A stretch of 64,000 nucleotides of DNA from an uncultured Dehalococcoidia bacterium (GCA_964347635.1 CAYFZI010000001.1:29322-93321), one strand, 5' to 3'. Counted from the stretch's first letter, positions 28,823 to 46,141 are shown. Numbers and translations are program-made. Notes: generated from the letters alone by a model not told the origin.

Positions 28823-29734
28823 TTACGGTACGGCTCCGCGTGTGCGGGCGACGGCGGCGGCGAGCGCCGCTGCATCCGCCGCGCCCGTCAGCCGTTCGCG
28901 GTAGACGCCGCTGCGGTCGATCAGCAGCAGCTCCGGCAGGCCGTCGATGCGGTAGTGGACGGCCGCGGCCGCCTCGCGGTCGATCACGCTGGGGATGCCC
29001 AACGCGGCTTCGACAAAGGCCCGCGCGGCTGCGCCCGGTGCGTCGTAGACGTTGATCGCCAGCACGGCCAGATCGCCCTCGGCGCCGCCAAGGCGGCGCC
29101 ATAGCTCGTCGAGCTGCCGCAGCAGCTCGAGATCACCCGTGTTCCAGGAGGCCCAGAAGACCAGCACGACCGTCTTGCCCCGGAAGTCGGAGAGCGCCGC
29201 GCTCCCTTCGCCTTCCAACCGCGGCAGCGTGAAGTTGGGCGCCGGCTGGCCGCGCTGCAGCCGCGCCGCGCCCGCTTCGATGCTGGGCGGGATCTGGTCC
29301 GCTGCAGCCCGAATCGAGGCCGGCGAGCTGCGCAGCCAGCGATCGACGGCCGCCGCCTGCCAGCTGAAGAAGCGGCGCTCCGGCATGATCGTGCGCACCG
29401 CGCCGCCCAGCTGCACGGACAGCGCGACTTCGACTCGGCCGTCGGCGTTGCGCCGCACCCGCACCCGCAGCGAGGCTGCGCCGTGCTCCACCGCCGAGGA
29501 CTGCAGCCAGCGGTCAACGGGCGCCTGCGCGTAGGGGAAGAAGCGGGCGCGGGGGCAGCGCCGCTGCGACTCTTCGGTCAGCTCGAGGCAGAGCTCGACA
29601 CGGCCGTCCTGCGCTTTGCGGGCAGCGATGCGCACCTCGACGGTATCGCCCTGCGCGTCGACTGCGGCGCCGCCGAGCAGCGCGGCCAGCAGGCCGAGCA
29701 GCGCCGCCGCCAGCGCCAGCCGCGCCATGCTCAA
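28823..29734 (-). CDS. Secreted protein: 2x novel N-repeat + redox-inactive TlpA-like thioredoxin-fold domain
   Basis: Signal peptide, then two copies of the EVRIAARKAQDGRVELCLEL...FFPYAQAPVDRWLQSS repeat, homologous to the N-terminal domain of the 38683-42984 array. The C-terminal domain aligns to TlpA/ResA (PAPNFTLP...GKTVVLVFWASWNTGD...GLPELLLIDRSG), but the WCxxC active site is replaced by WNTGD. Confidence 0.7.
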   Translation of the reverse strand: MSMARLALAAALLGLLAALLGGAAVDAQGDTVEVRIAARKAQDGRVELCLELTEESQRRCPRARFFPYAQAPVDRWLQSSAVEHGAASLRVRVRRNADGRVEVALSVQLGGAVRTIMPERRFFSWQAAAVDRWLRSSPASIRAAADQIPPSIEAGAARLQRGQPAPNFTLPRLEGEGSAALSDFRGKTVVLVFWASWNTGDLELLRQLDELWRRLGGAEGDLAVLAINVYDAPGAAARAFVEAALGIPSVIDREAAAAVHYRIDGLPELLLIDRSGVYRERLTGAADAAALAAAVARTRGAVP

Positions 29735-30264
29735 GCGGGGTTCATCGAGAAGTTGTGGTTGCCCAGGAATGCGCCGGCCCCGGCCACCGCGATGGTCAGC
29801 AGCAGCCCCGTGATCGAGAGCACGATCGTCAGCCGCCGCACTCGGACCAACTCAGTGCTGTCATCGGCCGCGGCCGCGGCTTGCCGCGCCAGCTCGAGCT
29901 GGCGCGGGCCGAACACGAACTGGTGCAGCCCGATCGCCGCGATCATCGCCGCCCACAGCGCCATCTTCACGACAAAGATGATGCCCCAGCGGGCATCGTA
30001 GATCGATGCGCCGAAATTCTCCGCCTGGTCGAGCCGCGGGTCGACCATCGCGCCCCCGCTGACCACGATGATGATCATCGCTGCGATCCCGAGCCGGCCG
30101 AAGCGCCGCGTGAAACCCTCCATCACATGGAGCCAAAACTCGCGGTCGCCCGCGGCGCGCAGCGCGGGAACCACCGCCGCGGCGGTCAGCACCTGGCCGC
30201 CCAGCCAGACCGCGACAGCGATCACGTGCAGCCAGATCAGGATCGAAAGCACTGACTCCGACAT
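29731..30264 (-). CDS. CopD-like / DUF2269-like integral membrane protein
   Basis: Four TM helices. The stop overlaps the downstream start (ATGA). Start is ambiguous between ATG 30264 (GGAG 9 nt upstream) and GTG 30273. Confidence 0.55.
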   Translation of the reverse strand: MSESVLSILIWLHVIAVAVWLGGQVLTAAAVVPALRAAGDREFWLHVMEGFTRRFGRLGIAAMIIIVVSGGAMVDPRLDQAENFGASIYDARWGIIFVVKMALWAAMIAAIGLHQFVFGPRQLELARQAAAAADDSTELVRVRRLTIVLSITGLLLTIAVAGAGAFLGNHNFSMNPA

Positions 30265-30314
30265 CGCCAACACTCCGCTCGAGAAGGCCCTGAGAAGGTT
30301 ATCCGAGCGCCGCG

Positions 30315-32316
<2,002 letters not shown>

Positions 32317-32325
32317 ACTGCCGCA

Positions 32326-33279
32326 ATGGCGAAGCCGTTCCTCAAGTGGGCGGGCGGCAAGACGCAGCTGCTCCCGCAGCTGCTGGCGGCTGCGCCGGCC
32401 CAGATCAGCACCTACTACGAACCGTTCCTCGGCGGCGGCGCACTCTTCTTCGCGCTCGATCGTCAGAATCGCTTTGAACGCGCAGTGCTCTCCGATCTGA
32501 ATGCAGATCTGATCAATGCATTCGTCCAGGTCCGTGACGCTGTCGACGACGTGATCGTGGCGCTCCGGACGCATGAGGCACAATACGTCGGAAAGACAGT
32601 GCGACGTGCTGACTATTTCTACAACGTGCGGGGGCAGACATACATGTTTGCTCCTGAGCAGGCAGCCCGGATGATTTTTCTCAACAAAACCTGCTTCAAT
32701 GGCCTATATCGCGTCAATAGCCGCGGCGAGTTCAACGTCCCTCACGGCCGCTATGCCAACCCTACTATCTGCGACGAGGACGGCTTGCGCGCCGTTTCCG
32801 AAGCCCTGCAAGGCGTCGAGATCCGCCTGTCAGATTTCGAAGATGCGGTCCGCGACGTCAACCGTGGGGACTTCGTCTATTTCGATCCGCCATATATCCC
32901 CGTAAGCGACACGTCTAGTTTCACGGCGTACACGGCAGACTCTTTTGGTCTCGACGAGCAGCATCGGCTCGCAGACATCGCAATGGAATTGACCGCGCGT
33001 GGTGTCAGCGTTTTGCTTTCAAACTCCAACCACCCTGATGTGCAAGCTCTCTACCATGCACGGGGAATGTCAACGAAGGCTGTTGCCGCTGGGCGGGCGA
33101 TCAACTCTGTAGGCACAGCTCGTGGCTCGATCACTGAATATCTCATTCGCCCCAAACAAGCCTCGCGCTCACGACGAACACCAGCGTCTATTCGAGATCG
33201 CGCCCGAAAAACGACCGAAGCCAGACGTCCAATTCGCCAATTTCAATGGCGAAGCCGGTTGCGCGCAAGAAGCCTTTGA
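32326..33279 (+). CDS. dam: DNA adenine methyltransferase, Dam family (GATC-type N6-adenine MTase)
   Basis: MAKPFLKWAGGKTQLLPQLL..., EPFLGGGALFF (motif I) and DPPY (motif IV). The gene lies in a ~55% GC island. The last ~35 aa are Arg-rich and overlap a convergent ORF, so the true stop may be earlier. Confidence 0.88.
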   Translation: MAKPFLKWAGGKTQLLPQLLAAAPAQISTYYEPFLGGGALFFALDRQNRFERAVLSDLNADLINAFVQVRDAVDDVIVALRTHEAQYVGKTVRRADYFYNVRGQTYMFAPEQAARMIFLNKTCFNGLYRVNSRGEFNVPHGRYANPTICDEDGLRAVSEALQGVEIRLSDFEDAVRDVNRGDFVYFDPPYIPVSDTSSFTAYTADSFGLDEQHRLADIAMELTARGVSVLLSNSNHPDVQALYHARGMSTKAVAAGRAINSVGTARGSITEYLIRPKQASRSRRTPASIRDRARKTTEARRPIRQFQWRSRLRARSL

Positions 33280-33570
33280 ACTCGATAGTGAATTTATCGC
33301 CGGCAAGCACGACGATCCCGCGGATTGGCCAAGTGCGCATGTCTTCGATCTGCGCTGGAATCTTCTCATACGTCGTCCCACTGGTTCCCTGATACCGACA
33401 CAGAATGCCGAGGCGTTCGCCAGTCTCGGGATCAGAGGCGACCACATCAATGACCCGATTGCTTCCCCAGACGGTCTTCCCAACAGGCACTTTGCGTTGC
33501 GCGAGCAGCTGAAGGCTCTCTACCGTTTCAGCGACCGTTTTCACGAGTTCGTTGTGTGACTTGACCATCA
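32450..33570. mobile_element. Low-GC (~55%) island carrying a Dam-family MTase and a small coupled ORF; putative horizontally acquired module
   Basis: Composition drops from ~70% to ~55% GC across the 3' two-thirds of dam and the whole 33188-33568 ORF. No integrase or inverted repeats were seen. Confidence 0.4.
33188..33568 (-). CDS. Hypothetical small protein (127 aa) within the low-GC island
   Basis: ATG at 33568 sits immediately after the maoC-like stop, with a GGAGGAG RBS inside the upstream gene's last codons (ccGGAGGAGtgaGTGATG). About 55% GC. No family recognised. Confidence 0.5.
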   Translation of the reverse strand: MVKSHNELVKTVAETVESLQLLAQRKVPVGKTVWGSNRVIDVVASDPETGERLGILCRYQGTSGTTYEKIPAQIEDMRTWPIRGIVVLAGDKFTIEFKGFLRATGFAIEIGELDVWLRSFFGRDLE

Positions 33571-33571
33571 C

Positions 33572-34039
33572 TCACTCCTCCGGCCGCTTCGGGATCATCA
33601 CCGCGCGGGTGAATTCCAGCACCGTCTCGCCGCGCTGATTGTGCCCGGTTGTGTGCACCGTGACGATCCCGCGGTCGGGCTGGGAGCGCGATTCGCGTAT
33701 CTGCGTCACTTCTGTCCGCGCGCTCAGCGTGTCGCCGTGGAAGACCGGCGCCGTGTGGCGCAGGTCCGTCGTGGCCAGATTGGCGATCGCTTTGCCGCTC
33801 ACGATCGGCACGGTCATCCCGAAGACCAGCGAATAGACGAACGGCCCCGAAACGATCCGCCGCCCGAACTGCGTGTCCTCCGCATACTCCCGGTTCGTGT
33901 GCAGCGGGTGGTGATTCATCGTCAGCATGCAGAACATCAGGTCATCGGCTTCGGTCACGGTGCGGGCCGGCCAGTGCTCGATGATCTCGCCCGGTTCGAA
34001 CTCGTCGAGATAGCGGCCAAACAGTTCTTTGGTCGGCAT
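33572..34039 (-). CDS. MaoC-like (R)-specific enoyl-CoA hydratase, hotdog fold
   Basis: Hotdog-fold hydratase motifs (NHHPLHTNREYA...GRRIVSGPF). Confidence 0.85.
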   Translation of the reverse strand: MPTKELFGRYLDEFEPGEIIEHWPARTVTEADDLMFCMLTMNHHPLHTNREYAEDTQFGRRIVSGPFVYSLVFGMTVPIVSGKAIANLATTDLRHTAPVFHGDTLSARTEVTQIRESRSQPDRGIVTVHTTGHNQRGETVLEFTRAVMIPKRPEE

Positions 34040-35320: not shown

Positions 35321-36520
35321 ATGAGTCGAACCCCGGTGCCCCACAGCGAGTGGCTCGAGGCCGCGGAAGCAGTTGGGCCGACCCTGCGCGGGCATGCCGA
35401 GCAGAACGAGCAGCTGCGCCGCCTGGCCCCGCCCGTGGTCGAGGCGCTGCGTGCTGCGCGGTTGTTCTCGATCTTCGCGCCGACCGAGGTTGGCGGCGGC
35501 AACCTCGATCCCGCTGGGCACCTCGAGGTCATCGCGGCGCTGACAGCGCACGACGGCTCGGCCGGCTGGTGCGCGATGATCGGCGCGCACGAATCGGCCT
35601 GGCTCGGCGCGCGTCTGCCCGAGTCCGGCATCGAGCGCGTCTTTGGCGCCGCGCAGTGGCCGATCACAGCAGGGCAGCCCTTTCCCGGCGGCGAAGCGCG
35701 GCCCGCGCCGGGCGGCTGGCGGCTCAGCGGACGCTGGGGCTGGGGCTCCGGCATCCACCACGCCGATTGGGTGATAGCGCAGGCGCGGATCGTCGATGGA
35801 CCTGGCGCAGAGCCAGGTGCAGAAACAGGCGCGGCCGAGAGCGAGGCGGGGCCGCCTGAACTGCTCACCGCCGTTGTCCCGCGCGCGCAGGTCGAAATCG
35901 AGGACACCTGGCATGTCGCCGGGATGCAGGGCACAGGCAGCAGCCACTACCGGCTCGAAGACGAATTCGTCAGCGCGGATTTTCGCCTGCAGCCCTTTGA
36001 GCAGCCGCCCCTGCGCGGCTCCGGCTGGGTCGCGCGGCCGACCCTCACCTTCCTCTGCCCGGCAGCCTTCGGGATCGCGCTGGGGCTGGCGGAGCGCGCG
36101 ATCGAGGAAGCGGCGGCGCTCGCCGCGACGCGTGTGCGGCTCGGCGCGCGCGCGCCGCTGGCCGAGCGCGAGCTCTTCCAGCGCGAGCTGGGCGAGCTGG
36201 CCGCAACCGCGCGCGCGATCCGCGGGCACGGCCTCGAGCTCTTCCGCGGGCTGGCTGAGGCGCCCGTGCGCAGCGTCTCCGACGCCGTGCAGATGGACGA
36301 CACCGCACGCAGCGCCGCCGCCTGGGCGACGCGCAGCGCCGAGTCGGTCGTGCGCACCGCCCACCGCGCCGCCGGCGGCGACGCCGTCTTCCTCGATCAC
36401 CCCCTCCAGCGCCTGCTGCGCGATGTGCAGACCGCCTCCCAGCATGTGGTCGTTTCCGACAACGCCTTCCAGCGCCTCGGCCGCCACACGCTCGGCCTGC
36501 CGGTGCGGCCCGGCCTGTGA
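35321..36520 (+). CDS. Acyl-CoA-dehydrogenase-like flavin-dependent monooxygenase/hydroxylase (group D), paralog 1
   Basis: ACAD type-2 fold without the CoA-thioester catalytic base pattern. TWHVAGMQGTGSSHYRLEDEFV is typical of HsaA/DszC/HpaB-like two-component monooxygenase oxygenases. Confidence 0.7.
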   Translation: MSRTPVPHSEWLEAAEAVGPTLRGHAEQNEQLRRLAPPVVEALRAARLFSIFAPTEVGGGNLDPAGHLEVIAALTAHDGSAGWCAMIGAHESAWLGARLPESGIERVFGAAQWPITAGQPFPGGEARPAPGGWRLSGRWGWGSGIHHADWVIAQARIVDGPGAEPGAETGAAESEAGPPELLTAVVPRAQVEIEDTWHVAGMQGTGSSHYRLEDEFVSADFRLQPFEQPPLRGSGWVARPTLTFLCPAAFGIALGLAERAIEEAAALAATRVRLGARAPLAERELFQRELGELAATARAIRGHGLELFRGLAEAPVRSVSDAVQMDDTARSAAAWATRSAESVVRTAHRAAGGDAVFLDHPLQRLLRDVQTASQHVVVSDNAFQRLGRHTLGLPVRPGL

Positions 36521-36582
36521 CCCGCCGAAGAGCGTGCGGATCGCTATGCTGGGTACCTGCTGAGAACCGAGGAGTGCTGGCG

Positions 36583-37116
36583 ATGCGCACTGCACTCGAG
36601 GTCGCTAAGTACTTTCTCAGCCTCGCCGCTGAACAGGGCGACGAGCTGAGTCAGCTGAAGCTGCAGAAACTCTGTTACTACGCGCAGGGCTACAACCTGG
36701 CGATGCGCGGCCAGCCGCTGTTCGACGACCCGATTGAGGCATGGGAGAAAGGCCCGGTCGTGCGGGGCCTGCGGCGTCATTTCGGGCCTCACGGTGAGAA
36801 CCCCATCCCTGCCGATCCGACGTTTGACCGAGAGGAGGCCTGCGGCGTTCGGGAAAGCGCGCTGCTGCACGCCGTCTACCGCGAGTTCCGCGCTGCGAGC
36901 GGCTCCGATCTCGTGACCGCGACTCACGGCGAACGGCCGTGGCAAGAGGCGCGCCAGAATGATGCGAACCTCTGCACCAATACCATGCGCGACCACTTCC
37001 TGCAGCGGCTTGAGTGCTCCGAGCGGCCCGCGCCGGTCTACCGATACTCACTGGAAGAGTCCTTGGCGCGCTCTGCAGCCGATATCGCCGCAGGCCGCTA
37101 CCGGCCGCTTCGGTGA
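36583..37116 (+). CDS. Panacea (DUF4065) domain protein, SocA/PanA antitoxin-like
   Basis: MRTALEVAKYFLSLAAEQGDELSQLKLQKLCYYAQGYNLAMRGQPLFDDPIEAWEKGPVV matches the Panacea domain signature. GAGGAG RBS. Sits between the two monooxygenase paralogs. Confidence 0.7.
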   Translation: MRTALEVAKYFLSLAAEQGDELSQLKLQKLCYYAQGYNLAMRGQPLFDDPIEAWEKGPVVRGLRRHFGPHGENPIPADPTFDREEACGVRESALLHAVYREFRAASGSDLVTATHGERPWQEARQNDANLCTNTMRDHFLQRLECSERPAPVYRYSLEESLARSAADIAAGRYRPLR

Positions 37117-37453: not shown

Positions 37454-38641
37454 GTGAGCCGAACGACTCCGCAGCGCCGGCGCGAGCGCAGCGACTGGCT
37501 CGGCCGCGCTGAGGCGATCCATTCGACCCTGCGCGGGCACGCCGCCGAATCGATTCAGCTGCGCACCCTCGCGCCCGCCTCGGTCGATGCGCTGGAGGCG
37601 AGCGGCATCTTCGCCGTCTCCGGCCCCGAGGAAGTGAACGGCTTCGCCGTTCATCCGACAACGCAGCTGGAGCTGTTCGCCGAGCTTGCGCGCGCCGATG
37701 TCTCAGCCGCCTGGTGCGCGATGATTCAGGCGCAAACGACCGGCCTGGCCGCAGCCCACTTGCAGGACGGTGAACCACTCGACACCGTTTTCGGACCGTC
37801 CTACCCGCGCACCGCCGGCACCGCGAATCCGGAGGGCGAAGGGCTGCCCTGCGCGGGCGGGCATCGGCTCTCGGGGCGCTGGTCGTTCGCCAGCGGGATC
37901 CGCCACTGCGGTTGGGTGCTGGCCAATGTGCGCCTGCTCGACGCCGACGGCCAGCCGCGCCGGCTGGAGAGCGGGGCGCCGCGCATCACAGCGGTCGCCG
38001 TGCCGACCAGCGAGCTGGATATTGAAGACAGCTGGCACGTGATGGGGCTCGAAGGCACCGGCAGCTCGCATTACCGCATGCACGATCTGTTCGTGCCCAG
38101 CGAGTTCGAGCTGCCCTTCGGCGGGCCCAACCCGCGGCGCGGCAGCGCCTGGTTTGATGTGCCCACGATCACCTTCCTCAGCCCCGGCCACGCCACGATC
38201 CCGCTCGGCGCGGCGGAGCGCGCGCTCGAGCTGCTGCGCGAGGCTGCGACGCGGGTGCGCTTCGGGACCAGCACCTCGATCGGCGCGCGCGGCGCCTTTC
38301 AGCGCGATTTCGGGGTCGCCTCGCACCGCTGCGAAGCGGCCCGCGCCCACGCGGTCGACGTGCTCGACGGCGCTATGGCGCAGCGCGAGCGCGGCGAACC
38401 GATCACGCCGGCCGACGACGCCCGCATCCGCGGCATGGTCGCTTGGGTCACCGACACCTGCCTCGAGGTGGTGCGGTTCGCCCACCACAGCCTCGGCGGC
38501 GCGGCCGCCTTCCGCGAACACCCGCTGCAGCAGATCCTGCGCGATCTCAGCGCCGCCGCGCAGCACATGTTCGTCGCCGACACCGCCTACGAGCGCAGCG
38601 GCGCGCTGCGCCTCGGCCAGCGCCCGCCCGGCGCGCTCTAG
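37454..38641 (+). CDS. Acyl-CoA-dehydrogenase-like flavin-dependent monooxygenase/hydroxylase, paralog 2
   Basis: Homologous to 35321-36520 from the N-terminus (VSRTTPQRRRERSDWL vs MSRTPVPHSEWL; SWHVMGLEGTGSSHYRMHDLFV). GTG start. Confidence 0.7.
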   Translation: MSRTTPQRRRERSDWLGRAEAIHSTLRGHAAESIQLRTLAPASVDALEASGIFAVSGPEEVNGFAVHPTTQLELFAELARADVSAAWCAMIQAQTTGLAAAHLQDGEPLDTVFGPSYPRTAGTANPEGEGLPCAGGHRLSGRWSFASGIRHCGWVLANVRLLDADGQPRRLESGAPRITAVAVPTSELDIEDSWHVMGLEGTGSSHYRMHDLFVPSEFELPFGGPNPRRGSAWFDVPTITFLSPGHATIPLGAAERALELLREAATRVRFGTSTSIGARGAFQRDFGVASHRCEAARAHAVDVLDGAMAQRERGEPITPADDARIRGMVAWVTDTCLEVVRFAHHSLGGAAAFREHPLQQILRDLSAAAQHMFVADTAYERSGALRLGQRPPGAL

Positions 38642-38682: not shown

Positions 38683-39678
38683 TCAGTAGTGGCCGCAGCG
38701 CGCGATGTTCTGCTGCAGCGGCGAGTCGAACAGCCCCAAGATCTCGAAGAACACTGTGAACCGCTCGCCGCGGATCTCGACGTGCATCCGCACATCCGAA
38801 GCGCCGCGCAGCTGTCCTGCGAATGCGCGCGGCGCGTCAGAGCTCACCGCGCCGCGGGGTTCCTCGGGGCCGCCGTGGATGTGCCATTTCGCTGAGCTGA
38901 GCGCTCCGCCGTCCACCGCCCAGAACACGGACGCCTCCGGAAACTCGACCTCGCCCAGCGGCGGCAGCCAGTACAGCTGCGCTATGAACTCCCGGTTGCT
39001 GCAGATCAAGGCCAGCCGGGCCCGCTCGTGCCCCTCGACGCCGGTCTTCTCGGAGATCACAGCGACGATCGTTGTCAGGTCCCTCTGCCCTCCGTCGTAG
39101 ACGGTGCCGTAGAGGATGCCGTCGGCCGTGGCGTCGCTGTCGACCGCGATCGGCTTGAACGCCGGGTCGACGGTCGTCGCCCACCAGGATTCCGCTGCTG
39201 CTGCGGCGGGGTCGAACTGCAGCGCGATCGGCGACGTCCGCAGCCAGCGGAAGTGCCTCGTATTGGAGGGGAAGTAGCGCCTGGGGGGCAGCATCAGCGC
39301 GCTCCACCAACCGTCGTTCCGGAGCTGCTGGAGGCCGAATTCCACGCGCCCGCCGCCGTCCCGCCGCATCGCGATTCGCACCTCGGTGATCGAGACGCTG
39401 CCGCCGCTCTCGATCCGCAGCTGGATCGGCGTGCCCTTATACCAGCGCGCGTGCGCCGCGTCTGCCCCAAACAGCCAGGTGCCGTGCTCCTCGTAGCTGC
39501 CCCAGGCGCCCCCGGCGCCGCGCCGCTGCAACCCCAATTCATAGCCGCCGCCAATGTGGTTGCGTGCGGCGACCCGAACCTCCAGCTCCAGCGGTGCGGC
39601 CGCCGCGCGCTCCGCAAGCGCCGCCGCAGCAAGCGCCGACAGCAGCACAAACACGGCCAGCAGTACGGCCTGCCCCAT
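38683..39678 (-). CDS. Novel secreted paralog A: signal peptide + 2x N-repeat + C-domain ending CGHY
   Basis: Signal peptide MGQAVLLAVFVLLSALAAAALA. Two N-repeats: EVRVAARNHIGGGYELGLQRRGAGGAWG... and EVRIAMRRDGGGRVEFGLQQLRNDGWW...RRYFPSNTRHFRWLRTSPIAL. The C-terminal domain (LTTIVAVIS...LICSNRE...FEILGLFDSPLQQNIARCGHY) is shared with the three upstream genes. Confidence 0.75.
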   Translation of the reverse strand: MGQAVLLAVFVLLSALAAAALAERAAAAPLELEVRVAARNHIGGGYELGLQRRGAGGAWGSYEEHGTWLFGADAAHARWYKGTPIQLRIESGGSVSITEVRIAMRRDGGGRVEFGLQQLRNDGWWSALMLPPRRYFPSNTRHFRWLRTSPIALQFDPAAAAAESWWATTVDPAFKPIAVDSDATADGILYGTVYDGGQRDLTTIVAVISEKTGVEGHERARLALICSNREFIAQLYWLPPLGEVEFPEASVFWAVDGGALSSAKWHIHGGPEEPRGAVSSDAPRAFAGQLRGASDVRMHVEIRGERFTVFFEILGLFDSPLQQNIARCGHY

Positions 39679-39806
39679 CCGCAGTACAGCTCCAACAGCC
39701 CTAGGCCTGCACGCACGCATCGGCGCACTCCTATTCAAGCTCACAGCCAGGCAGCGCCCTACCCTACCGCGCCTGCGCAGCGCGGCGGCGCGCCTATTTC
39801 CTGTCG

Positions 39807-40829
39807 TCAGTACTCGCCGCAGCGATCGAGGTTGGGCTGTATGGGGGTGTCGAAGAGGCGGGCGACCGCGAACTCGAATGTTTCGAGGTCGCCGTCGTTG
39901 TCGCGGCCGCGGATCACGACCGTTTCAGCGTTGCGCAGCTGTTCCGCAAAACCGCGGTCATCGGGCGGGCTGGCCGCGGTGCTGAGGTTGCCGTCATCGA
40001 CGATCTCCCATTTCGCCGCGACCGCGTCTGCTTGGTTAATCCGATACTCCATGTCGAGTTCCCGCTCCAAAAACGTGAACGGCATGCCGGTCACGACGAC
40101 CTGAAAATCACCCTCGAAACAACCGAGCAGGAGCATTGCGGGCTCGATTTCGAACGAACTGGCCTCAGTGTGCCGGACGCTGATCAGGCTGGTCAGAGCG
40201 TCGTCGATCGGGTCGCGGGTGGTTGTGTAGAAGACATACTCGCCGAGTTGTGTAACGCTCTCGTCCTCGTAGGGGGCGAACGCTTCGTCCTCCTCGGATC
40301 CCGCCGCATCTTCTGCATCCTGAGCCGCTGCTGCTTCGTCTTGCTCCCCATCCTGCTCATCGGCCCCCGGCAGCGGGTCGCCGGCGGCCCAGTCTGCAGG
40401 CGGTATCAGAATCTCGCGGCCGATATTGAGGATAGTGTCGAGCTCCAGATCCTCATTGAAGGCGAGCAGATTGTTGATGTCGACGCTGTACCGCCGGGCG
40501 AGCCGATAGAGCGTGTCGCCGGCGCTGACGGTGTGCACGGCGGCGGGCTGTATCGGTTCGGGCTGGGGCTGTTCCTGCTGAACGGCCGCGTCCGCCTGCC
40601 CGCCCGCATCCTCGGCAGCAGGCTGCGGCTGCTCCTCCGCGGGTTGAGCCTGTTCCTGCGGTTCGGGCTGCGGCTCCGGCGCGGGGCGCTGCGACTCGAT
40701 CCGCGTCTGCTCAGCGCCGTTCTGCTCCTCATCGTCGCCGCTCCTGCCGACGATCACCACCAGAGCAACAAAGCCGACCAGCAAGAGCAGCCCGATCGCC
40801 GCGATGATGCCGAGGCAGCCCTGCGCCAT
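39807..40829 (-). CDS. Novel paralog B: TM anchor + Pro/Gln/Glu-rich linker + LysM domain + C-domain ending CGEY
   Basis: N-terminal TM helix (IIAAIGLLLLVGFVALVVIV). LysM (HTVSAGDTLYRLARRYSVDINNLLAFNEDLELDTILNIGREILIPP). C-domain (LTSLISVRHTE...LLLGCFEG...FAVARLFDTPIQPNLDRCGEY). Its ATG overlaps the upstream gene's stop as TGATG. Confidence 0.78.
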   Translation of the reverse strand: MAQGCLGIIAAIGLLLLVGFVALVVIVGRSGDDEEQNGAEQTRIESQRPAPEPQPEPQEQAQPAEEQPQPAAEDAGGQADAAVQQEQPQPEPIQPAAVHTVSAGDTLYRLARRYSVDINNLLAFNEDLELDTILNIGREILIPPADWAAGDPLPGADEQDGEQDEAAAAQDAEDAAGSEEDEAFAPYEDESVTQLGEYVFYTTTRDPIDDALTSLISVRHTEASSFEIEPAMLLLGCFEGDFQVVVTGMPFTFLERELDMEYRINQADAVAAKWEIVDDGNLSTAASPPDDRGFAEQLRNAETVVIRGRDNDGDLETFEFAVARLFDTPIQPNLDRCGEY

Positions 40830-42040
40830 CAGTACTGCCCGCAGTAGTCCAAATTGGCCTGAACCGGCGTCTCAAACAGGCCCGCCAGCGGCAACTGTAT
40901 GTGCTGGCTGCCGCTGCCTGGGTTGATGTGGAATTCGAGCACGCGCGCTTGGCGCAGCTGCGCGATGAACGCAGCGTCGTCATCCGGGCTGATCCCTGAC
41001 TCTACCGAGAAGACAAACATCCAACGATGCGTGGTCGCTGCTCGACCGTCAAGTCGAACACTCGTAACTGGCGTACTTTCTATCTCGGTGATCCAGAGCC
41101 AGAGCGCGCTGTCATTGAGAATGATATCAAGCCGATCGACGTCACAGATCATGTGCAGTGTGCCACTGCCTCTTCTGAGAGTGACGCCTGTGGTCAGGGC
41201 TGTTGGATCCAGATGCGGGCTCACCCAGTATTCGATATCGATGAAGACGAGACCGTTTGTCTCGCCCAAGAGGGCAACCCCTCCAGGTGTGGAACGTCCG
41301 CAGTAGTCGATGTTCGGCTGGGCCGGCGTAGTGAAAAGCCCGGCCAAATCTATCGTCGCACCGCCAGAGCTCCCTCCTCCGAATTGAACGGTCAGCGTCT
41401 GTGAACGCTTGAGCCGTTCCACAAACGTCGCATCGTCGTCGGGGCTGTACCCAGAGGTGGCACCGCGGTAGGAGCGCCAATTGACAGTTTCGATTTCGCC
41501 CCCGTCGAAGCGCAGCAAGATCACTTCACCGTCGCCGTAGAAAAACCGATAGTCCCAGTCAACCAATACATCAAACTTGCCTTGGGCGCAGACCAGTTCA
41601 ATCGAAAAATCGTTGGCATGCGTGCGGACGATGGTGGTGAGCGTGTCGCTCAGGGGGTCGCGCTCGACTTCGTACCAGAGATCCGCTTCGCCCGTGCCGA
41701 TCGTCTCTCTGGCGGGTTTCCAGCCCGCCGGCGGATTCGGCCCCGGCTGCGGGCGCGCCGCAACAGGCGCCGGCGCCGGCGCGCCGACTGTGAGCGGCGA
41801 GCTGTTCAGCCAGCGATCATGGTCGATTTCGGCGGGGAGGTAGCGGGCTTGCGGGAGTTGGCGCTCGCCCCAGTCGCCGCCGCCGTGGCGCTGCTGCAGG
41901 CCGAACTCAGTGCGACCGTCGTCGAGGCGCCGGACGCTGATCCGAACCTCGGTGTCCCCCTCCACAGCGCGGACTGTGAGCGTCGCGATGCCGGCGATCA
42001 GCGCCAGCACCACCAAGCCGATGACGCTGTTCCTGGCCAT
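40829..42040 (-). CDS. Novel paralog C: signal/anchor + N-repeat + Pro-rich linker + 2x C-domain (ending YCGRS / YCGQY)
   Basis: MARNSVIGLVVLALIAGIATLTVRAVEGDTEVRISVRRLDDGRTEFGLQQRHGGGDWGERQLPQARYLPAEIDHDRWLNSSPLTV. Two tandem C-domains: ...LTTIVRTHANDFSIELVCAQG...DLAGLFTTPAQPNIDYCGRS and ...HMICDVDRL...LPLAGLFETPVQANLDYCGQY. Confidence 0.78.
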   Translation of the reverse strand: MARNSVIGLVVLALIAGIATLTVRAVEGDTEVRISVRRLDDGRTEFGLQQRHGGGDWGERQLPQARYLPAEIDHDRWLNSSPLTVGAPAPAPVAARPQPGPNPPAGWKPARETIGTGEADLWYEVERDPLSDTLTTIVRTHANDFSIELVCAQGKFDVLVDWDYRFFYGDGEVILLRFDGGEIETVNWRSYRGATSGYSPDDDATFVERLKRSQTLTVQFGGGSSGGATIDLAGLFTTPAQPNIDYCGRSTPGGVALLGETNGLVFIDIEYWVSPHLDPTALTTGVTLRRGSGTLHMICDVDRLDIILNDSALWLWITEIESTPVTSVRLDGRAATTHRWMFVFSVESGISPDDDAAFIAQLRQARVLEFHINPGSGSQHIQLPLAGLFETPVQANLDYCGQY

Positions 42041-42174
42041 AGCCCGCGCCTTTCCAGCAGCTCACTCGCCGAATGGAGGAGGCAAGCGGGAAAGCTACAG
42101 CCCGAAAGCTGCGCGATCAACCGCCGCCGTGCTCTGCATTGCCGCCGCCCGGATGAACGCGGGGCGGCCTTGGC

Positions 42175-42984
42175 TCAATTGGCGCCCGCAGTGCTCTGCC
42201 CGCAGTTAAGAAGGTTGCGGTGCACCGGAGTCTCAAGCAGGCCTTCAATGTCCAGCGTGATTGGGCTGGGAGATCTCGACCACAATCTGATCGTGAGTGT
42301 GGAGCGGCCCCGCAAGCTGTTCAGAAATGGCCCGGCATCGCTTGGCCCATAACCTGCAGTGCCTATGGCCGGCCATGTGCTCTGCTGCAACGGGCCGTCG
42401 TCAATGCGCCACTCAACCTCTTGGGTGCCGCTGACGTAGTACCAGTCGTCATCGGCTACATACACACGCAGTCGGTCGCTGCACAAGATTATCAACTCGA
42501 GCGGATCCTCCAGAAATCCAGGGCCAGGGTCTTCCTCACTAGTCCGAACTATGGTGCTCACCGTGCCATCAAACGGATCTCGGGATACGAAGAATCGAAT
42601 ATTCTCGCTGGTCTCTCCACCGGCCCACACCAGCCCTTCCGTCGGCAGTAGGGAGATGCCCCCTTCCAGCAAATGGCCGTGGATCGCGGAGGCCGCGCTG
42701 TCGGCCGTCAGCTCATCCTCGGCGGGGCCCAGCGTGAGCGGTGAGCTGTTCAGCCAGCGATCGTGGTTGACTTCGGCGGGGAGGTAGCGGGCTCGCGGGA
42801 ATTGGCGCTCGCCCCAGTCGCCGCCGCCGTAGCGCTGCTGCAGGCCGAACTCGGTGCGGCCGTCGTCGAGGCGCCGGACGGTGATCCGAACCTCGGTGTC
42901 CCCCTCCACAGCGTGGACTGTGATCGTCGCGATGCTGGCGATCAGCGCCAGCGCGAGCAAACCGATGACGCTGTTCTTAACCAT
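42175..42984 (-). CDS. Novel paralog D: signal/anchor + N-repeat + C-domain (ending NCGQS)
   Basis: MVKNSVIGLLALALIASIATITVHAVEGDTEVRITVRRLDDGRTEFGLQQRYGGGDWGERQFPRARYLPAEVNHDRWLNSSPLTL is ~90% identical to the N-terminus of C. The C-domain is ...VSTIVRTSEED...LIILCSDRL...DIEGLLETPVHRNLLNCGQSTAGAN. ATG at 42984. Confidence 0.75.
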   Translation of the reverse strand: MVKNSVIGLLALALIASIATITVHAVEGDTEVRITVRRLDDGRTEFGLQQRYGGGDWGERQFPRARYLPAEVNHDRWLNSSPLTLGPAEDELTADSAASAIHGHLLEGGISLLPTEGLVWAGGETSENIRFFVSRDPFDGTVSTIVRTSEEDPGPGFLEDPLELIILCSDRLRVYVADDDWYYVSGTQEVEWRIDDGPLQQSTWPAIGTAGYGPSDAGPFLNSLRGRSTLTIRLWSRSPSPITLDIEGLLETPVHRNLLNCGQSTAGAN

Positions 42985-43119
42985 ATTTTGTGTTCTCTCA
43001 ACCGTTCGCACGCCGAATCGCAGGCGGCAAGCGGGAAAGCTACAGCCCGAAAGTTGCGCGATCAACCGCCGCCGGCGCAGCGAGCAGGAGGGGCGCTGGG
43101 GCGCGGCGCGCCTGCGCTG

Positions 43120-45638: not shown

Positions 45639-45881
45639 TTAGCGCCAGTCGGGGCGGCGGATCTCGCTCTTGCGGCGCACTTCCCACAGCCGTTCGATGT
45701 CTGCGTTGATCTTCTCGTGCAGCGCATCCATCTCTTCGCGGCCGGGGCGCATCTCGTTGGATTTCCAGCGGCGCACGGCAGCGCGATCGGACTTTTCCAG
45801 CTCGGTTTCGTCCAGCATGCGGCTGATGATGCGGTTCATCACCGCCCACGCCTCTTCGATATCAAGCTCGACTTTGACCAT
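45639..45881 (-). CDS. Small hypothetical protein (80 aa), paralog of 45893-46141
   Basis: MVKVELDIEEAWAVMNRIISRMLDETELEKSDRAAVRRWK... shares EEAW..M.......LD..EL......A.R.W......GR with the adjacent ORF. Confidence 0.5.
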   Translation of the reverse strand: MVKVELDIEEAWAVMNRIISRMLDETELEKSDRAAVRRWKSNEMRPGREEMDALHEKINADIERLWEVRRKSEIRRPDWR

Positions 45882-45892
45882 GGCGGGCGCTC

Positions 45893-46141
45893 CTAGCGAA
45901 CGGTGCGGTAGTAGTCGCGGCGGCGGATCGTGCGGGTCAGTTCAGCGTCGATCGTGTTGCCGAGCGCTTCGTTGACGGCGGCGGCGAATTCGACCATCGC
46001 CGGGCGGCCCTCTTCGAGCCCGGCGCGCCACTCGCGGATCGCTTTGACGCCCGCGTCGCTCAGCTCGACTTGGTCGAGCACTTGCGCGGTGACCAAGGTC
46101 ATCAGCGACCAGGCCTCTTCTTCGTCGAGCATTAGGCGCAT
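45893..46141 (-). CDS. Small hypothetical protein (82 aa), paralog of 45639-45881
   Basis: MRLMLDEEEAWSLMTLVTAQVLDQVELSDAGVKAIREWRAGLEEGRPAMVEF... is a tandem paralog of 45639-45881 in the same orientation, inside the crotonase gene train. Confidence 0.5.
   Translation of the reverse strand: MRLMLDEEEAWSLMTLVTAQVLDQVELSDAGVKAIREWRAGLEEGRPAMVEFAAAVNEALGNTIDAELTRTIRRRDYYRTVR

What the first reader, a model, noticed from the sequence alone, without database searches (positions are those of the whole stretch)
38683..42984. Tandem array of four paralogous secreted/anchored proteins built on an unrecognised two-cysteine C-terminal domain ending ...GLF.TP.Q.N.D.CG[QEH]Y
Four consecutive minus-strand genes (D 42984-42175, C 42040-40829, B 40829-39807, A 39678-38683) each start with a signal peptide or TM anchor. 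They share a ~140-aa domain present five times in total, because C has two copies. The domain has a conserved internal Cys (LVCAQG / MICDVD / ILCSDR / LLGCFEG / LICSNRE). It carries an (S/D)DDxxF(I/V)xxLR motif. It ends with a C-terminal block GLF(E/D/T)TP(V/I/A)QxN(I/L)DxCG(Q/E/H/R)(Y/S), usually as the last residues of the protein. Two invariant cysteines per domain suggest an extracytoplasmic disulfide. I cannot place this domain in any family I know, and this array is my best candidate for a novel system in the window. It sits inside a fatty-acid/acyl-CoA gene train: acyl-CoA ligase, crotonases and a penicillin-acylase-family hydrolase lie directly upstream on the same strand.
Basis: seen in the sequence. 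Interest (0 to 1): 0.9.

Follow-up and report, generated by a model that had tools for sequence, protein, structure and literature searches.

The report
Chloroflexota surface proteins with IalB/VasI-like domain
Four neighbouring genes encode membrane-tethered, secreted proteins built from a two-cysteine domain that no domain database recognises directly. It proves to be a distant Chloroflexota-specific relative of the bacterial IalB and VasI/TagO envelope proteins, so this is a real and unnamed family but not a new kind of system.

Summary
There are four minus-strand genes (A-D) carrying five copies of a ~140-aa domain, each with exactly two cysteines and the C-terminal TPxQxN(L/I)DxCG block.

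The domain gets no direct Pfam or NCBIfam hit, but it is not an orphan.
- An exhaustive HMMER search found 748 representative proteins, some with up to six copies.
- The weaker tail of that hit list consists of bona fide Pfam VasI/TagO (PF11319) proteins.
- A profile-profile comparison gives 99.5% probability (E 3e-23).

All 22 genomic loci carrying the motif are Dehalococcoidia or other Chloroflexota MAGs.

A, C and D also carry an undescribed ~60-aa N-terminal repeat that is fused elsewhere to RCC1-repeat, DUF1524 and redoxin domains. B carries LysM.

In other genomes the domain follows a putative SprT-like zinc peptidase module, which fits a non-catalytic accessory or binding role.

The link to the neighbouring acyl-CoA genes appears positional only. 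C and D have their own duplicated upstream element, and the C-B pair sits in different surroundings in another genome.

Verdict: a paralogous family of cell-surface binding or scaffold proteins. It is a new variant of a known but functionally unsolved fold, not a novel multi-component system.

The parts
42175..42984 (-). Gene D (269 aa). It has an N-terminal hydrophobic signal/anchor, one N-repeat, a disordered linker and one C-domain. Its terminal motif is degenerate (TPVHRNLLNCGQSTAGAN).
   Evidence: ORF. Start supported. AF2 model (helix 5-19, N-repeat 30-88, C-domain 120-265). dN/dS 0.45 against L027.
42196..42609 (-). C-domain of D (aa 126-263)
42724..42903 (-). N-repeat of D (aa 28-87)
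   Evidence: Alignment A2. HMM hit at 117.6 bits.
40829..42040 (-). Gene C (403 aa). It has a signal/anchor, one N-repeat and two C-domains. Its stop codon overlaps the start codon of B by one base.
   Evidence: ORF. Near-identical public gene products (P0002, P0152). dN/dS 0.22.
41780..41959 (-). N-repeat of C (aa 28-87)
41294..41686 (-). C-domain 1 of C (aa 119-249), ending ...TPAQPNIDYCGRS inside the protein
   Evidence: 118.5 bits with the independent profile
40832..41239 (-). C-domain 2 of C (aa 268-403), ending ...TPVQANLDYCGQY at the C-terminus
39807..40829 (-). Gene B (340 aa). It has an N-terminal TM anchor, a Pro/Glu/Gln-rich linker, LysM, an acidic linker and one C-domain.
   Evidence: dN/dS 0.08. 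B-like orthologues without LysM follow a C-like gene in L001 and L005.
40401..40535 (-). LysM domain of B (aa 99-143)
   Evidence: Pfam PF01476, 39.2 bits against a cut-off of 20.9
39810..40235 (-). C-domain of B (aa 199-340)
   Evidence: 120.1 bits. Weak hit to phrog_1848.
38683..39720 (-). Gene A (345 aa). It has a signal peptide (hydrophobic core aa 18-36, A-L-A before E37), two N-repeats and one C-domain.
   Evidence: dN/dS 0.20.
39214..39591 (-). Two N-repeats of A (aa 44-103 and 110-169)
38686..39123 (-). C-domain of A (aa 200-345)
   Evidence: 82.8 bits
43028..43067 (-). 40-nt conserved upstream element before D (GGTTGATCGCGCAACTTTCGGGCTGTAGCTTTCCCGCTTG). It reads as a possible promoter, TTGATC-17-TAGCTT.
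   Evidence: It has two exact-pattern copies in the window and none in shuffles, and it is conserved in L027.
42083..42122 (-). Second copy of the 40-nt upstream element, before C. Together with the first 259 nt of the coding sequence (91% identical between C and D), it forms a duplicated 'head' module.
   Evidence: Not a stable RNA fold (z 0.6).

Best explanation
A-D are a locally duplicated cluster from a large, Chloroflexota-specific family of cell-surface proteins.

Each protein is exported and held at the outer face of the cytoplasmic membrane by an N-terminal signal or anchor. The anchor is followed by a lineage-specific ~60-aa N-repeat (A, C, D) or a peptidoglycan-binding LysM domain (B), which serves as stalk or envelope attachment. 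A flexible linker then leads to one or two copies of a ~140-aa beta-rich domain.

That domain is a remote homologue of the VasI/TagO (Pfam PF11319) and IalB families of periplasmic envelope proteins. Its C-terminal tail (TPxQxN(L/I)DxCG) folds back onto the third beta-strand and is most likely pinned there by the invariant Cys-Cys disulfide.

The domain most likely acts as a non-catalytic binding or scaffolding module, recognising an envelope polymer, a partner protein or an external surface. It is probably not an enzyme, and the four genes do not form a multi-component 'system'.

Shown: the genes are real and under purifying selection; the domain architecture; homology to VasI/TagO; fold similarity to IalB; restriction of the sampled loci to Chloroflexota; and modular reuse of both domains.

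Inferred: export topology, the disulfide, and the binding function.
For: Real genes and real family:
- dN/dS is 0.08-0.45 against L027.
- There are 748 representative homologues, 119 of them at E<=1e-10, with 1-6 domain copies per protein.

Homology:
- Proteins at E 1e-9 to 1e-11 in the hit list pass Pfam's VasI gathering score, for example 56.4, 43 and 41.3 bits against a cut-off of 26.5.
- hhalign of 61 C-domains against 10 VasI/TagO proteins gives probability 99.5% and E 3.4e-23 over 131 columns. The C-terminal Cys columns and the RxD and W motifs are aligned. The VasI/TagO set has its own invariant Cys pair in the equivalent positions.

Fold:
- Foldseek gives IalB only (probability 1.0, TM 0.55-0.63).

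No catalytic signature:
- Only the two Cys are invariant, and W, T, N and G are nearly so.

Accessory-module behaviour:
- In nine related large proteins, two C-domains follow a ~265-aa region with invariant HExxH...H and six Cys. Eight of the nine give sub-threshold SprT-like hits.
- The N-repeat is also fused to RCC1-repeat, DUF1524 and redoxin domains.

Envelope location:
- Hydrophobic N-termini and LysM in B.

Surface-protein-like evolution:
- C and D diverge faster than their neighbours: 89% and 83% identity against 98.7% for the ligase, and dN/dS 0.22 and 0.45 against 0.06.
- The C and D head is 91-96% identical while their C-domains are about 27% identical.

Literature:
- IalB-domain and VasI/TagO proteins are periplasmic or envelope proteins of unknown molecular function (PMC7327166; PMC13584744; PMC6299047).
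Against: No ligand or partner is identified, so 'binding module' rests on the absence of catalytic motifs and on domain architecture alone.

The related families (IalB, VasI/TagO) have no known mechanism, so homology transfers location but not function.

None of the window proteins reaches any Pfam or NCBIfam threshold for VasI or IalB.

Signal peptides, membrane topology and the disulfide were not tested with dedicated predictors or model coordinates.

The strongly conserved T-P-x-Q-x-N-x-D motif could be a metal or catalytic site, which I cannot exclude.
Confidence: 0.55

Rival explanations
1. Host- or particle-adhesion (or invasion-type) factors. The variable C-domains would bind external surfaces, for example tissues of a host such as a sponge or organic particles, in analogy to IalB's role in erythrocyte invasion. 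This is a special case of the binding-module idea with an external target.
For: The fold is IalB-like, and IalB promotes erythrocyte invasion (PMC6299047). The family is paralogue-rich, with several loci per genome and up to six diverged copies per protein. C and D evolve fast. At least one locus comes from the SB0664 MAG series, which also contains sponge-symbiotic Entoporibacteria bins.
Against: The source environment of the window is unknown. IalB's own mechanism is unknown. The fold relation is remote (7-12% identity). B is highly conserved (dN/dS 0.08) and carries LysM, which points to the cell's own wall.
Confidence: 0.15
2. Extracytoplasmic capture or handling proteins for the substrate of the neighbouring pathway (penicillin-amidase-type hydrolase, acyl-CoA ligase, enoyl-CoA hydratases, acyl-CoA dehydrogenases). 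The beta-rich domain would bind an acylated or lipidic compound that is then deacylated and oxidised.
For: The genes share a strand with the ligase and lie a short distance downstream of it (55-136 nt). The whole arrangement is conserved in L027. No minus-strand terminator-like site lies between the ligase gene and D.
Against: L027 is nearly the same genome (ligase 98.7% identical), so its synteny is uninformative. The C-B pair in L005 and L001 sits beside a short-chain dehydrogenase and a luciferase-like monooxygenase instead. Larger paralogues lie beside an M1 peptidase and hydrolases. C and D each have their own duplicated upstream element. These Dehalococcoidia genomes are dense in such metabolic genes everywhere.
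Confidence: 0.1
3. Protective inhibitor or immunity proteins. These would be disulfide-stabilised periplasm-type beta domains held at the wall (LysM, membrane anchor) that neutralise incoming envelope-degrading enzymes, in the way lysozyme inhibitors do. That could also explain why VasI/TagO sits in T6SS clusters.
For: VasI/TagO is T6SS-associated with unknown role. The domains are small, secreted, disulfide-containing and diversifying. LysM is present in B.
Against: There is no hit to any known inhibitor family (MliC, PliC and others) in Pfam and no defence-system hit in PADLOC beyond a low-complexity match. No toxin or effector genes lie nearby. Multi-copy proteins of about 1150 aa and fusions to a putative peptidase are not typical of immunity proteins.
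Confidence: 0.08
4. A previously unknown enzyme or metal-binding domain whose active site is the conserved D...T-P-x-Q-x-N-x-D-x-C-G cluster. In that case the array would be a set of isoenzymes.
For: The C-terminal motif is very strongly conserved: T, N and G at 90% or more, and C invariant. The motif is absent from VasI/TagO, so it is a derived feature that needs explaining.
Against: No His, Ser or Glu-type catalytic residue is conserved. The fold relatives are non-enzymatic. Gene D has lost Q and D of the motif yet is still under purifying selection.
Confidence: 0.07
5. Spurious ORFs or an assembly artefact in high-GC DNA.
For: High-GC sequence produces many long ORFs.
Against: dN/dS is below 1 for all four genes. 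The same proteins occur in independent assemblies. There are hundreds of homologues, high-confidence fold predictions and a coding-type GC3 bias.
Confidence: 0.01

Closest known systems
VasI / TagO, T6SS-associated protein (Pfam PF11319; V. cholerae VCA0118)
   Same: Homologous core domain: hhalign probability 99.5%, E 3.4e-23. It shares the order of motifs (DPxxD loop, Cys in an early strand, W, (Y)R(I)D-G, W, F..L helix, FDL-G, C-terminal Cys) and the exported location.
   Different: The window proteins do not reach the PF11319 threshold. They lack VasI's N-terminal Cys-containing extension. They add the TPxQxN(L/I)DxCG tail, occur as tandem repeats of up to six copies and combine with the N-repeat, LysM or a putative peptidase. 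They are found in Chloroflexota with no T6SS genes nearby. VasI/TagO itself has no known function (PMC13584744).
IalB, invasion-associated locus B (Pfam PF06776; PDB 3DTD), including RgsG of Sinorhizobium
   Different: Sequence identity is only 7-12%. There is no Pfam hit and no PDB hit by sequence profile. IalB proteins are single-domain proteins of diderm Proteobacteria, and their mechanism is unknown.
Component of the Vibrio sodium-driven polar flagellar motor in the LPHT-ring structure (PDB 8z5n chain A; probably MotY, from my own knowledge)
   Different: The similarity is at fold level only (6-13% identity). No flagellar genes are nearby, and homology is not shown.
Accessory binding modules of secreted bacterial proteins (for example CBM56, and PKD/PPC-type domains after proteases)

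Membership tests
Pfam PF11319 VasI/TagO | Match to the family HMM at or above the gathering score (26.5 bits) | tested here: not met
   No PF11319 hit for A-D even at E<=1. No TagO model hit in NCBIfam.
Pfam PF11319 VasI/TagO | Homology of the core domain to bona fide members | tested here: met
   Profile hits P0120, P0140 and P0148 pass the PF11319 threshold. hhalign A3 against A5 gives 99.5%, E 3.4e-23.
Pfam PF11319 VasI/TagO | Encoded within or next to a type VI secretion gene cluster | tested here: not met
   Genes within about 10 kb on both sides are acyl-CoA metabolism, SocA_Panacea, a methyltransferase and similar; no Tss genes. All related loci are from Chloroflexota MAGs.
Pfam PF11319 VasI/TagO | Conserved pair of cysteines bracketing the domain | tested here: met
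   Invariant in 61 C-domains and in 10 VasI/TagO proteins. The C-terminal Cys columns are aligned to each other, and the early-strand Cys lies in the equivalent aligned strand.
Pfam PF06776 IalB | Match to the family HMM | tested here: not met
   No hit for A-D. Only weak hits (E 0.03 and 0.2) in the intermediates P0122 and P0136.
Pfam PF06776 IalB | IalB fold (PDB 3DTD) | tested here: met
Pfam PF06776 IalB | Role in host-cell invasion or polar growth | not testable with these tools
   Needs genetics or cell biology. Literature only.
LysM (PF01476), gene B only | Match to the family HMM above threshold | tested here: met
   39.2 bits against 20.9, residues 99-143
C-terminal protein-sorting signals (LPXTG, PEP-CTERM and similar) | Motif followed by a hydrophobic helix and a basic tail at the extreme C-terminus only | tested here: not met
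   The proteins end 1-2 residues after CG with no hydrophobic stretch. The same motif also occurs internally between tandem copies.
Anti-phage defence systems (PADLOC) and phage proteins (PHROGs) | Match to a defence or phage family model | tested here: inconclusive
   PADLOC gives only a 17.5-bit match in B's low-complexity linker. PHROGs gives weak hits of the C-domain to phrog_1848, of unknown function (E 1.2e-5 and 2.6e-4). No relatives in viral contigs carry the motif.

The most novel reading that the evidence does not exclude
Monoderm Chloroflexota would use a modular surface-display system of their own, not yet described. A lineage-specific N-repeat would act as a new cell-envelope anchoring or stalk module carrying interchangeable cargo: IalB/VasI-like domains, RCC1 propellers, nucleases, redoxins and peptidases. 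The disulfide-stapled C-domains, with their invariant TPxQxN(L/I)DxCG site, would form a diversifying ligand-recognition repertoire. That repertoire would be reshuffled by gene conversion of a shared promoter-plus-head cassette, as seen between C and D, and used for attachment to hosts (for example sponges) or to particles. This would also imply that the ancestral role of T6SS-associated VasI/TagO and of IalB is envelope or ligand binding independent of secretion systems.
Probability: 0.2. Interest if true: 0.6.

Novelty: new variant of a known kind. Interest (0 to 1): 0.4.

Why it matters
IalB (a Bartonella virulence factor), IalB-domain proteins essential for polar growth in Rhizobiales, and the T6SS accessory protein VasI/TagO are all envelope proteins whose molecular function is still unknown.

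This work shows that the same fold has expanded in a clade with hundreds of members in Chloroflexota. There it occurs without T6SS genes nearby, in tandem arrays, and fused to LysM and to putative peptidases. That argues for a generic binding or scaffold role for the whole superfamily, independent of any secretion system. It also supplies many diverged sequences for structure-function work.

Two modules remain unannotated in current domain libraries, the C-domain clade and the N-repeat. They probably account for many 'hypothetical proteins' in Dehalococcoidia and SAR202-type MAGs.

This is not a new biological system, and no mechanism is revealed.

Tried and rejected
Searches that found nothing or could not run:
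- A word-indexed protein search with the five window domains found only one relative, P0001. With the four N-repeats it found nothing. Sensitivity was limited, and the exhaustive HMMER search solved this.
A scan with protein C alone found nothing, so the source genome is not among the species representatives.
- An exact look-up of protein C was not on record.
- PDB sequence-profile searches with the C-domain and with the VasI profile found no hits.
- The AFDB Foldseek library was unavailable.
- Viral contigs hold no relatives with the motif.
- Rfam found nothing in the whole window.
- The 95-nt region upstream of C is not a stable RNA (z 0.6).
- The sigma-70 consensus scan found no promoter, and there are no convincing minus-strand terminators between the genes.

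Ideas rejected:
- A C-terminal sorting signal, because no hydrophobic tail follows the motif and the motif also occurs internally.
- A defence system.
- An operon-level functional link to acyl-CoA metabolism, because the context is not conserved outside a near-identical genome.
- The conserved neighbourhood of the large paralogues (M1 peptidase, alpha/beta hydrolases, luciferase-like monooxygenase, MBL, CoA-transferases). It appears to reflect synteny among related genomes rather than envelope partners.

Not achieved: I could not isolate the N-repeat fold.
Full report
**1. What is in the sequence.**

Four consecutive minus-strand ORFs are present:
- A: 38683-39744
- B: 39807-40829
- C: 40829-42040
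- D: 42175-43065

Public gene calls and ribosome-binding-site context place the start of A at 39720 (AGGAG 8 nt upstream) and the start of D at 42984. The stop codon of C and the start codon of B share base 40829.

The five copies of the ~140-aa C-domain align with D, C, W, D, F, L, L, P, N, C and G invariant. A profile built only from 53 relatives less than 50% identical to the window proteins finds all five copies at 83-120 bits, so the repeat is not a chance resemblance.

Apart from one Cys in each of the N-terminal hydrophobic segments of A and B, the proteins contain exactly two Cys per C-domain and no others.

- A second conserved module of about 60 aa (consensus EVRIxARRLxDGRxEFGLQQR..G.WGER.LP..R.FP.....RWL.SSP). 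It occurs twice in A and once each in C and D.
- A bona fide LysM domain in B (39.2 bits).

Each protein starts with a strongly hydrophobic segment. The AF2 model of D shows an N-terminal helix, the N-repeat, a disordered linker and the C-domain.

**2. The genes are real.**

The same proteins occur in independent assemblies. One of these is a 282-kb contig (L027) with the identical gene order: penicillin amidase, ECH, two small ORFs, ECH, AMP-ligase, D, C, B(LysM), A, then divergent acyl-CoA dehydrogenases.

| Gene | Identity to the L027 orthologue | dN/dS |
|---|---|---|
| D | 82.6% | 0.45 |
| C | 89.4% | 0.22 |
| B | 97.9% | 0.08 |
| A | 97.1% | 0.20 |
| Neighbouring acyl-CoA ligase | 98.7% | 0.06 |
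| Neighbouring acyl-CoA dehydrogenase | not computed | 0.056 |

All four genes are therefore under purifying selection. C and D evolve several-fold faster than their neighbours.

**3. The family.**

No direct hit to the C-domain or the N-repeat exists in Pfam or NCBIfam. The word-indexed search found a single relative.

The exhaustive HMMER search found 748 representative proteins at E<=1e-3, of which 119 are at E<=1e-10. They carry one to six domain copies.
- 113 of the best 151 proteins carry TPxQxNxxxC.
- 88 of 89 full-length domain instances have exactly two Cys.
- Both Cys are the only invariant columns in a 61-sequence alignment. W, T, N and G are conserved at 90% or more.
- 74 of the 151 proteins also carry the N-repeat, usually as a pair directly after the signal sequence.

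A scan of one genome per prokaryotic species with the motif [LA]F[DES]TP[VI]QPN returned 22 confirmed loci. All are from Dehalococcoidia or Chloroflexi MAGs, several with two loci per genome. The named proteins are also Chloroflexota. The window itself, at about 70% GC, is therefore most probably from a Dehalococcoidia-class Chloroflexota MAG. This is an inference.

**4. What the C-domain is.**

The lower part of the exhaustive hit list (E 1e-9 to 1e-11) consists of proteins that pass Pfam's gathering threshold for PF11319 (VasI/EvfG/VC_A0118). Some add weak IalB hits, and their sources name them VasI or TagO.

An alignment of 61 C-domains that contains none of these proteins was compared with an alignment of ten VasI/TagO proteins. 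It gives hhalign probability 99.5% and E 3.4e-23 over 131 columns. The C-terminal cysteines, the RxD-G motif, the Trp and the FDL-G strand are in register.

AlphaFold2 gives a confident all-beta model with two to three short helices for C domain 2 (pLDDT 93.6). For full-length D the C-domain is again confident.
- Foldseek finds only IalB (probability 1.0, TM 0.55-0.63).
- Sequence profiles do not reach any PDB entry.

The domain is thus a divergent, unannotated clade of the VasI/TagO-IalB-like fold. Its derived hallmark is the C-terminal TPxQxN(L/I)DxCG tail, which VasI/TagO lacks.

In the model the first Cys lies in strand 3 and the second follows the last short helix. The inferred disulfide would staple the tail to the sheet. 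I could not measure this in coordinates.

**5. What is known about the relatives.**

- A 2026 review lists TagO/VasI function as 'Unknown' (PMC13584744).
- IalB promotes erythrocyte invasion by an unknown mechanism, and its localisation is disputed (PMC6299047).
- The IalB-domain protein RgsG is a periplasmic, essential, pole-localised protein of unknown molecular function (PMC7327166).

Homology therefore transfers 'exported envelope protein' but not a mechanism.

**6. Clues to function from architecture.**

(a) The only strictly conserved residues are the two Cys, and no catalytic-type residue is conserved.

(b) The domain is repeated up to six times, and copies within one protein are strongly diverged.

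(c) In nine related proteins of about 800 aa (signal, two N-repeats, middle region, two C-domains), the middle region has invariant HExxH plus a fourth His and six Cys. It gives sub-threshold SprT-like hits in eight of the nine. There the C-domain behaves as an accessory module behind a putative secreted zinc peptidase.

(d) The N-repeat is a general N-terminal module of secreted Chloroflexota proteins.
- It precedes RCC1-repeat propellers (PF13540/PF00415) and DUF1524 (PF07510).
- In this very window it precedes a redoxin-fold protein at 28823-29734.

(e) B replaces the N-repeat with LysM, a peptidoglycan-binding module. B-like orthologues elsewhere lack LysM.

(f) C and D share a duplicated head.
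- A 53-nt upstream element is 96% identical between them. Its 40-nt core occurs exactly twice in the window and never in shuffles.
- The first 259 nt of coding sequence are 91% identical, while their C-domains are only about 27% identical.
- At some sites the paralogues within a genome share variants against their orthologues, which suggests gene conversion.
- The element reads TTGATC-17-TAGCTT and is not a stable RNA. It is most simply a duplicated promoter. This is an inference.

**7. Relation to the surrounding genes.**

The acyl-CoA ligase, the two enoyl-CoA hydratases and the penicillin amidase upstream, and the acyl-CoA dehydrogenases downstream on the other strand, are confirmed. This arrangement is seen only in a near-identical genome.

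In a Dehalococcoidia chromosome that encodes B and C homologues (56% identity to B), only the C-B pair is present. It lies between a short-chain dehydrogenase and luciferase-like monooxygenase genes. The larger paralogues lie beside an M1 aminopeptidase, hydrolases, a luciferase-like monooxygenase and CoA-transferases.

No conserved partner gene emerges, and no secretion-system, defence or phage genes are nearby. The conserved unit is the translationally coupled or adjacent C-B pair, not a 'system'.

**8. Best explanation and rivals.**

The most likely explanation (about 0.55) is that A-D are paralogous, membrane-tethered cell-surface proteins. Their IalB/VasI-like, disulfide-stapled domains would serve as non-catalytic binding or scaffold modules, displayed on an N-repeat or LysM stalk.

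The rivals are:
- external adhesion or host interaction (0.15), which is really a sub-case;
- substrate capture for the adjacent acyl-compound pathway (0.10);
- inhibitor or immunity proteins (0.08);
- an unrecognised enzyme or metal site at the conserved tail (0.07);
- artefact (0.01 or less).

**9. Novelty and score.**

It is nonetheless a new clade of a known fold family whose members are themselves functionally unsolved. That makes it a new variant of a known kind rather than categorically new.

A specialist would find two things mildly surprising: that TagO/IalB-like domains are so expanded in monoderm Chloroflexota with no T6SS genes nearby, and that two undescribed modules explain many 'hypothetical' surface proteins there. 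No long-standing question becomes directly testable. Interest: 0.4.

Noticed in passing
window 28823-29734 (-): A 303-aa protein with a signal peptide and two copies of the same N-repeat, followed by an AhpC-TSA/Redoxin fold. The usual CxxC site reads WASWNTGD, so the catalytic cysteines are lost. It lies next to a CopD/DUF4149 membrane protein at 29731-30273. A redox-inactive thioredoxin-fold surface protein would be unusual.
   Followed up: partly
window 41783-42129 and 42727-43074 (-): Genes C and D share a duplicated 'head'. A 53-nt upstream element is 96% identical and the first 259 coding nt are 91% identical, while the rest of the two genes has diverged to about 27% amino-acid identity. 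Some variants are shared by the paralogues within a genome rather than by orthologues, which suggests gene conversion. The 40-nt core is found only in this lineage (window and L027).
   Followed up: yes
loci L007-L025, e.g. L007 6381-8756 (+); proteins P0040, P0041, P0047, P0049, P0056, P0065, P0067, P0079, P0118: A subfamily of about 800-aa proteins with a signal, two N-repeats, a ~265-aa region and two C-domains. The middle region has invariant HExxH...H and six Cys. It gives sub-threshold SprT-like hits and looks like a putative secreted zinc peptidase family with no Pfam model. It sits in a conserved neighbourhood with an M1 aminopeptidase and an alpha/beta hydrolase.
   Followed up: partly
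proteins P0167-P0186; L005 67-1140 and 2755-4545: The N-repeat is fused to RCC1-repeat propeller proteins (PF13540, PF00415, PF25390) and to DUF1524 (PF07510) proteins in Chloroflexota. Secreted RCC1-repeat proteins also lie just upstream of the C-B pair in L005.
   Followed up: partly
window 45639-45881 (-) and 45893-46141 (-): Two small paralogous ORFs (80 and 82 aa, both with an E-E-A-W...M motif near the N-terminus) lie between the two enoyl-CoA hydratase genes. They are conserved in L027 and have no Pfam hit.
   Followed up: no
window 36517-37116 (+): A SocA_Panacea (antitoxin-type, PF13274) gene is wedged between two acyl-CoA-dehydrogenase-like genes (35321-36520 and 37454-38641). No obvious toxin partner was seen.
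   Followed up: no
window about 32000-34000: GC content dips to 0.616 against about 0.70 in the flanks. According to the syntenic locus L003, this stretch holds a PDDEXK_11 nuclease-fold gene overlapping a D12-class adenine methyltransferase gene, a possible restriction-modification or mobile remnant. The B-C-D-ligase region (40-44 kb) is also lower in GC (0.63-0.64).
   Followed up: no
B aa 202-323 and C aa 141-222 (window 39861-40226 and 41375-41620, minus strand): The C-domain gives weak but repeated hits to phrog_1848, a phage protein family of unknown function (E 2.6e-4 and 1.2e-5). Some phages may therefore encode a related domain. No viral contig with the TPxQPN motif was found.
   Followed up: partly
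L021 (VXQT01000012.1, Chloroflexi bacterium SB0664_bin_15): The SB0664 MAG series also contains sponge-symbiotic Entoporibacteria bins (PMC7883664). At least part of the family therefore comes from sponge-associated Chloroflexota. The environment of the window's own samples (ERZ21848999, ERZ25070760) could not be determined.
   Followed up: partly
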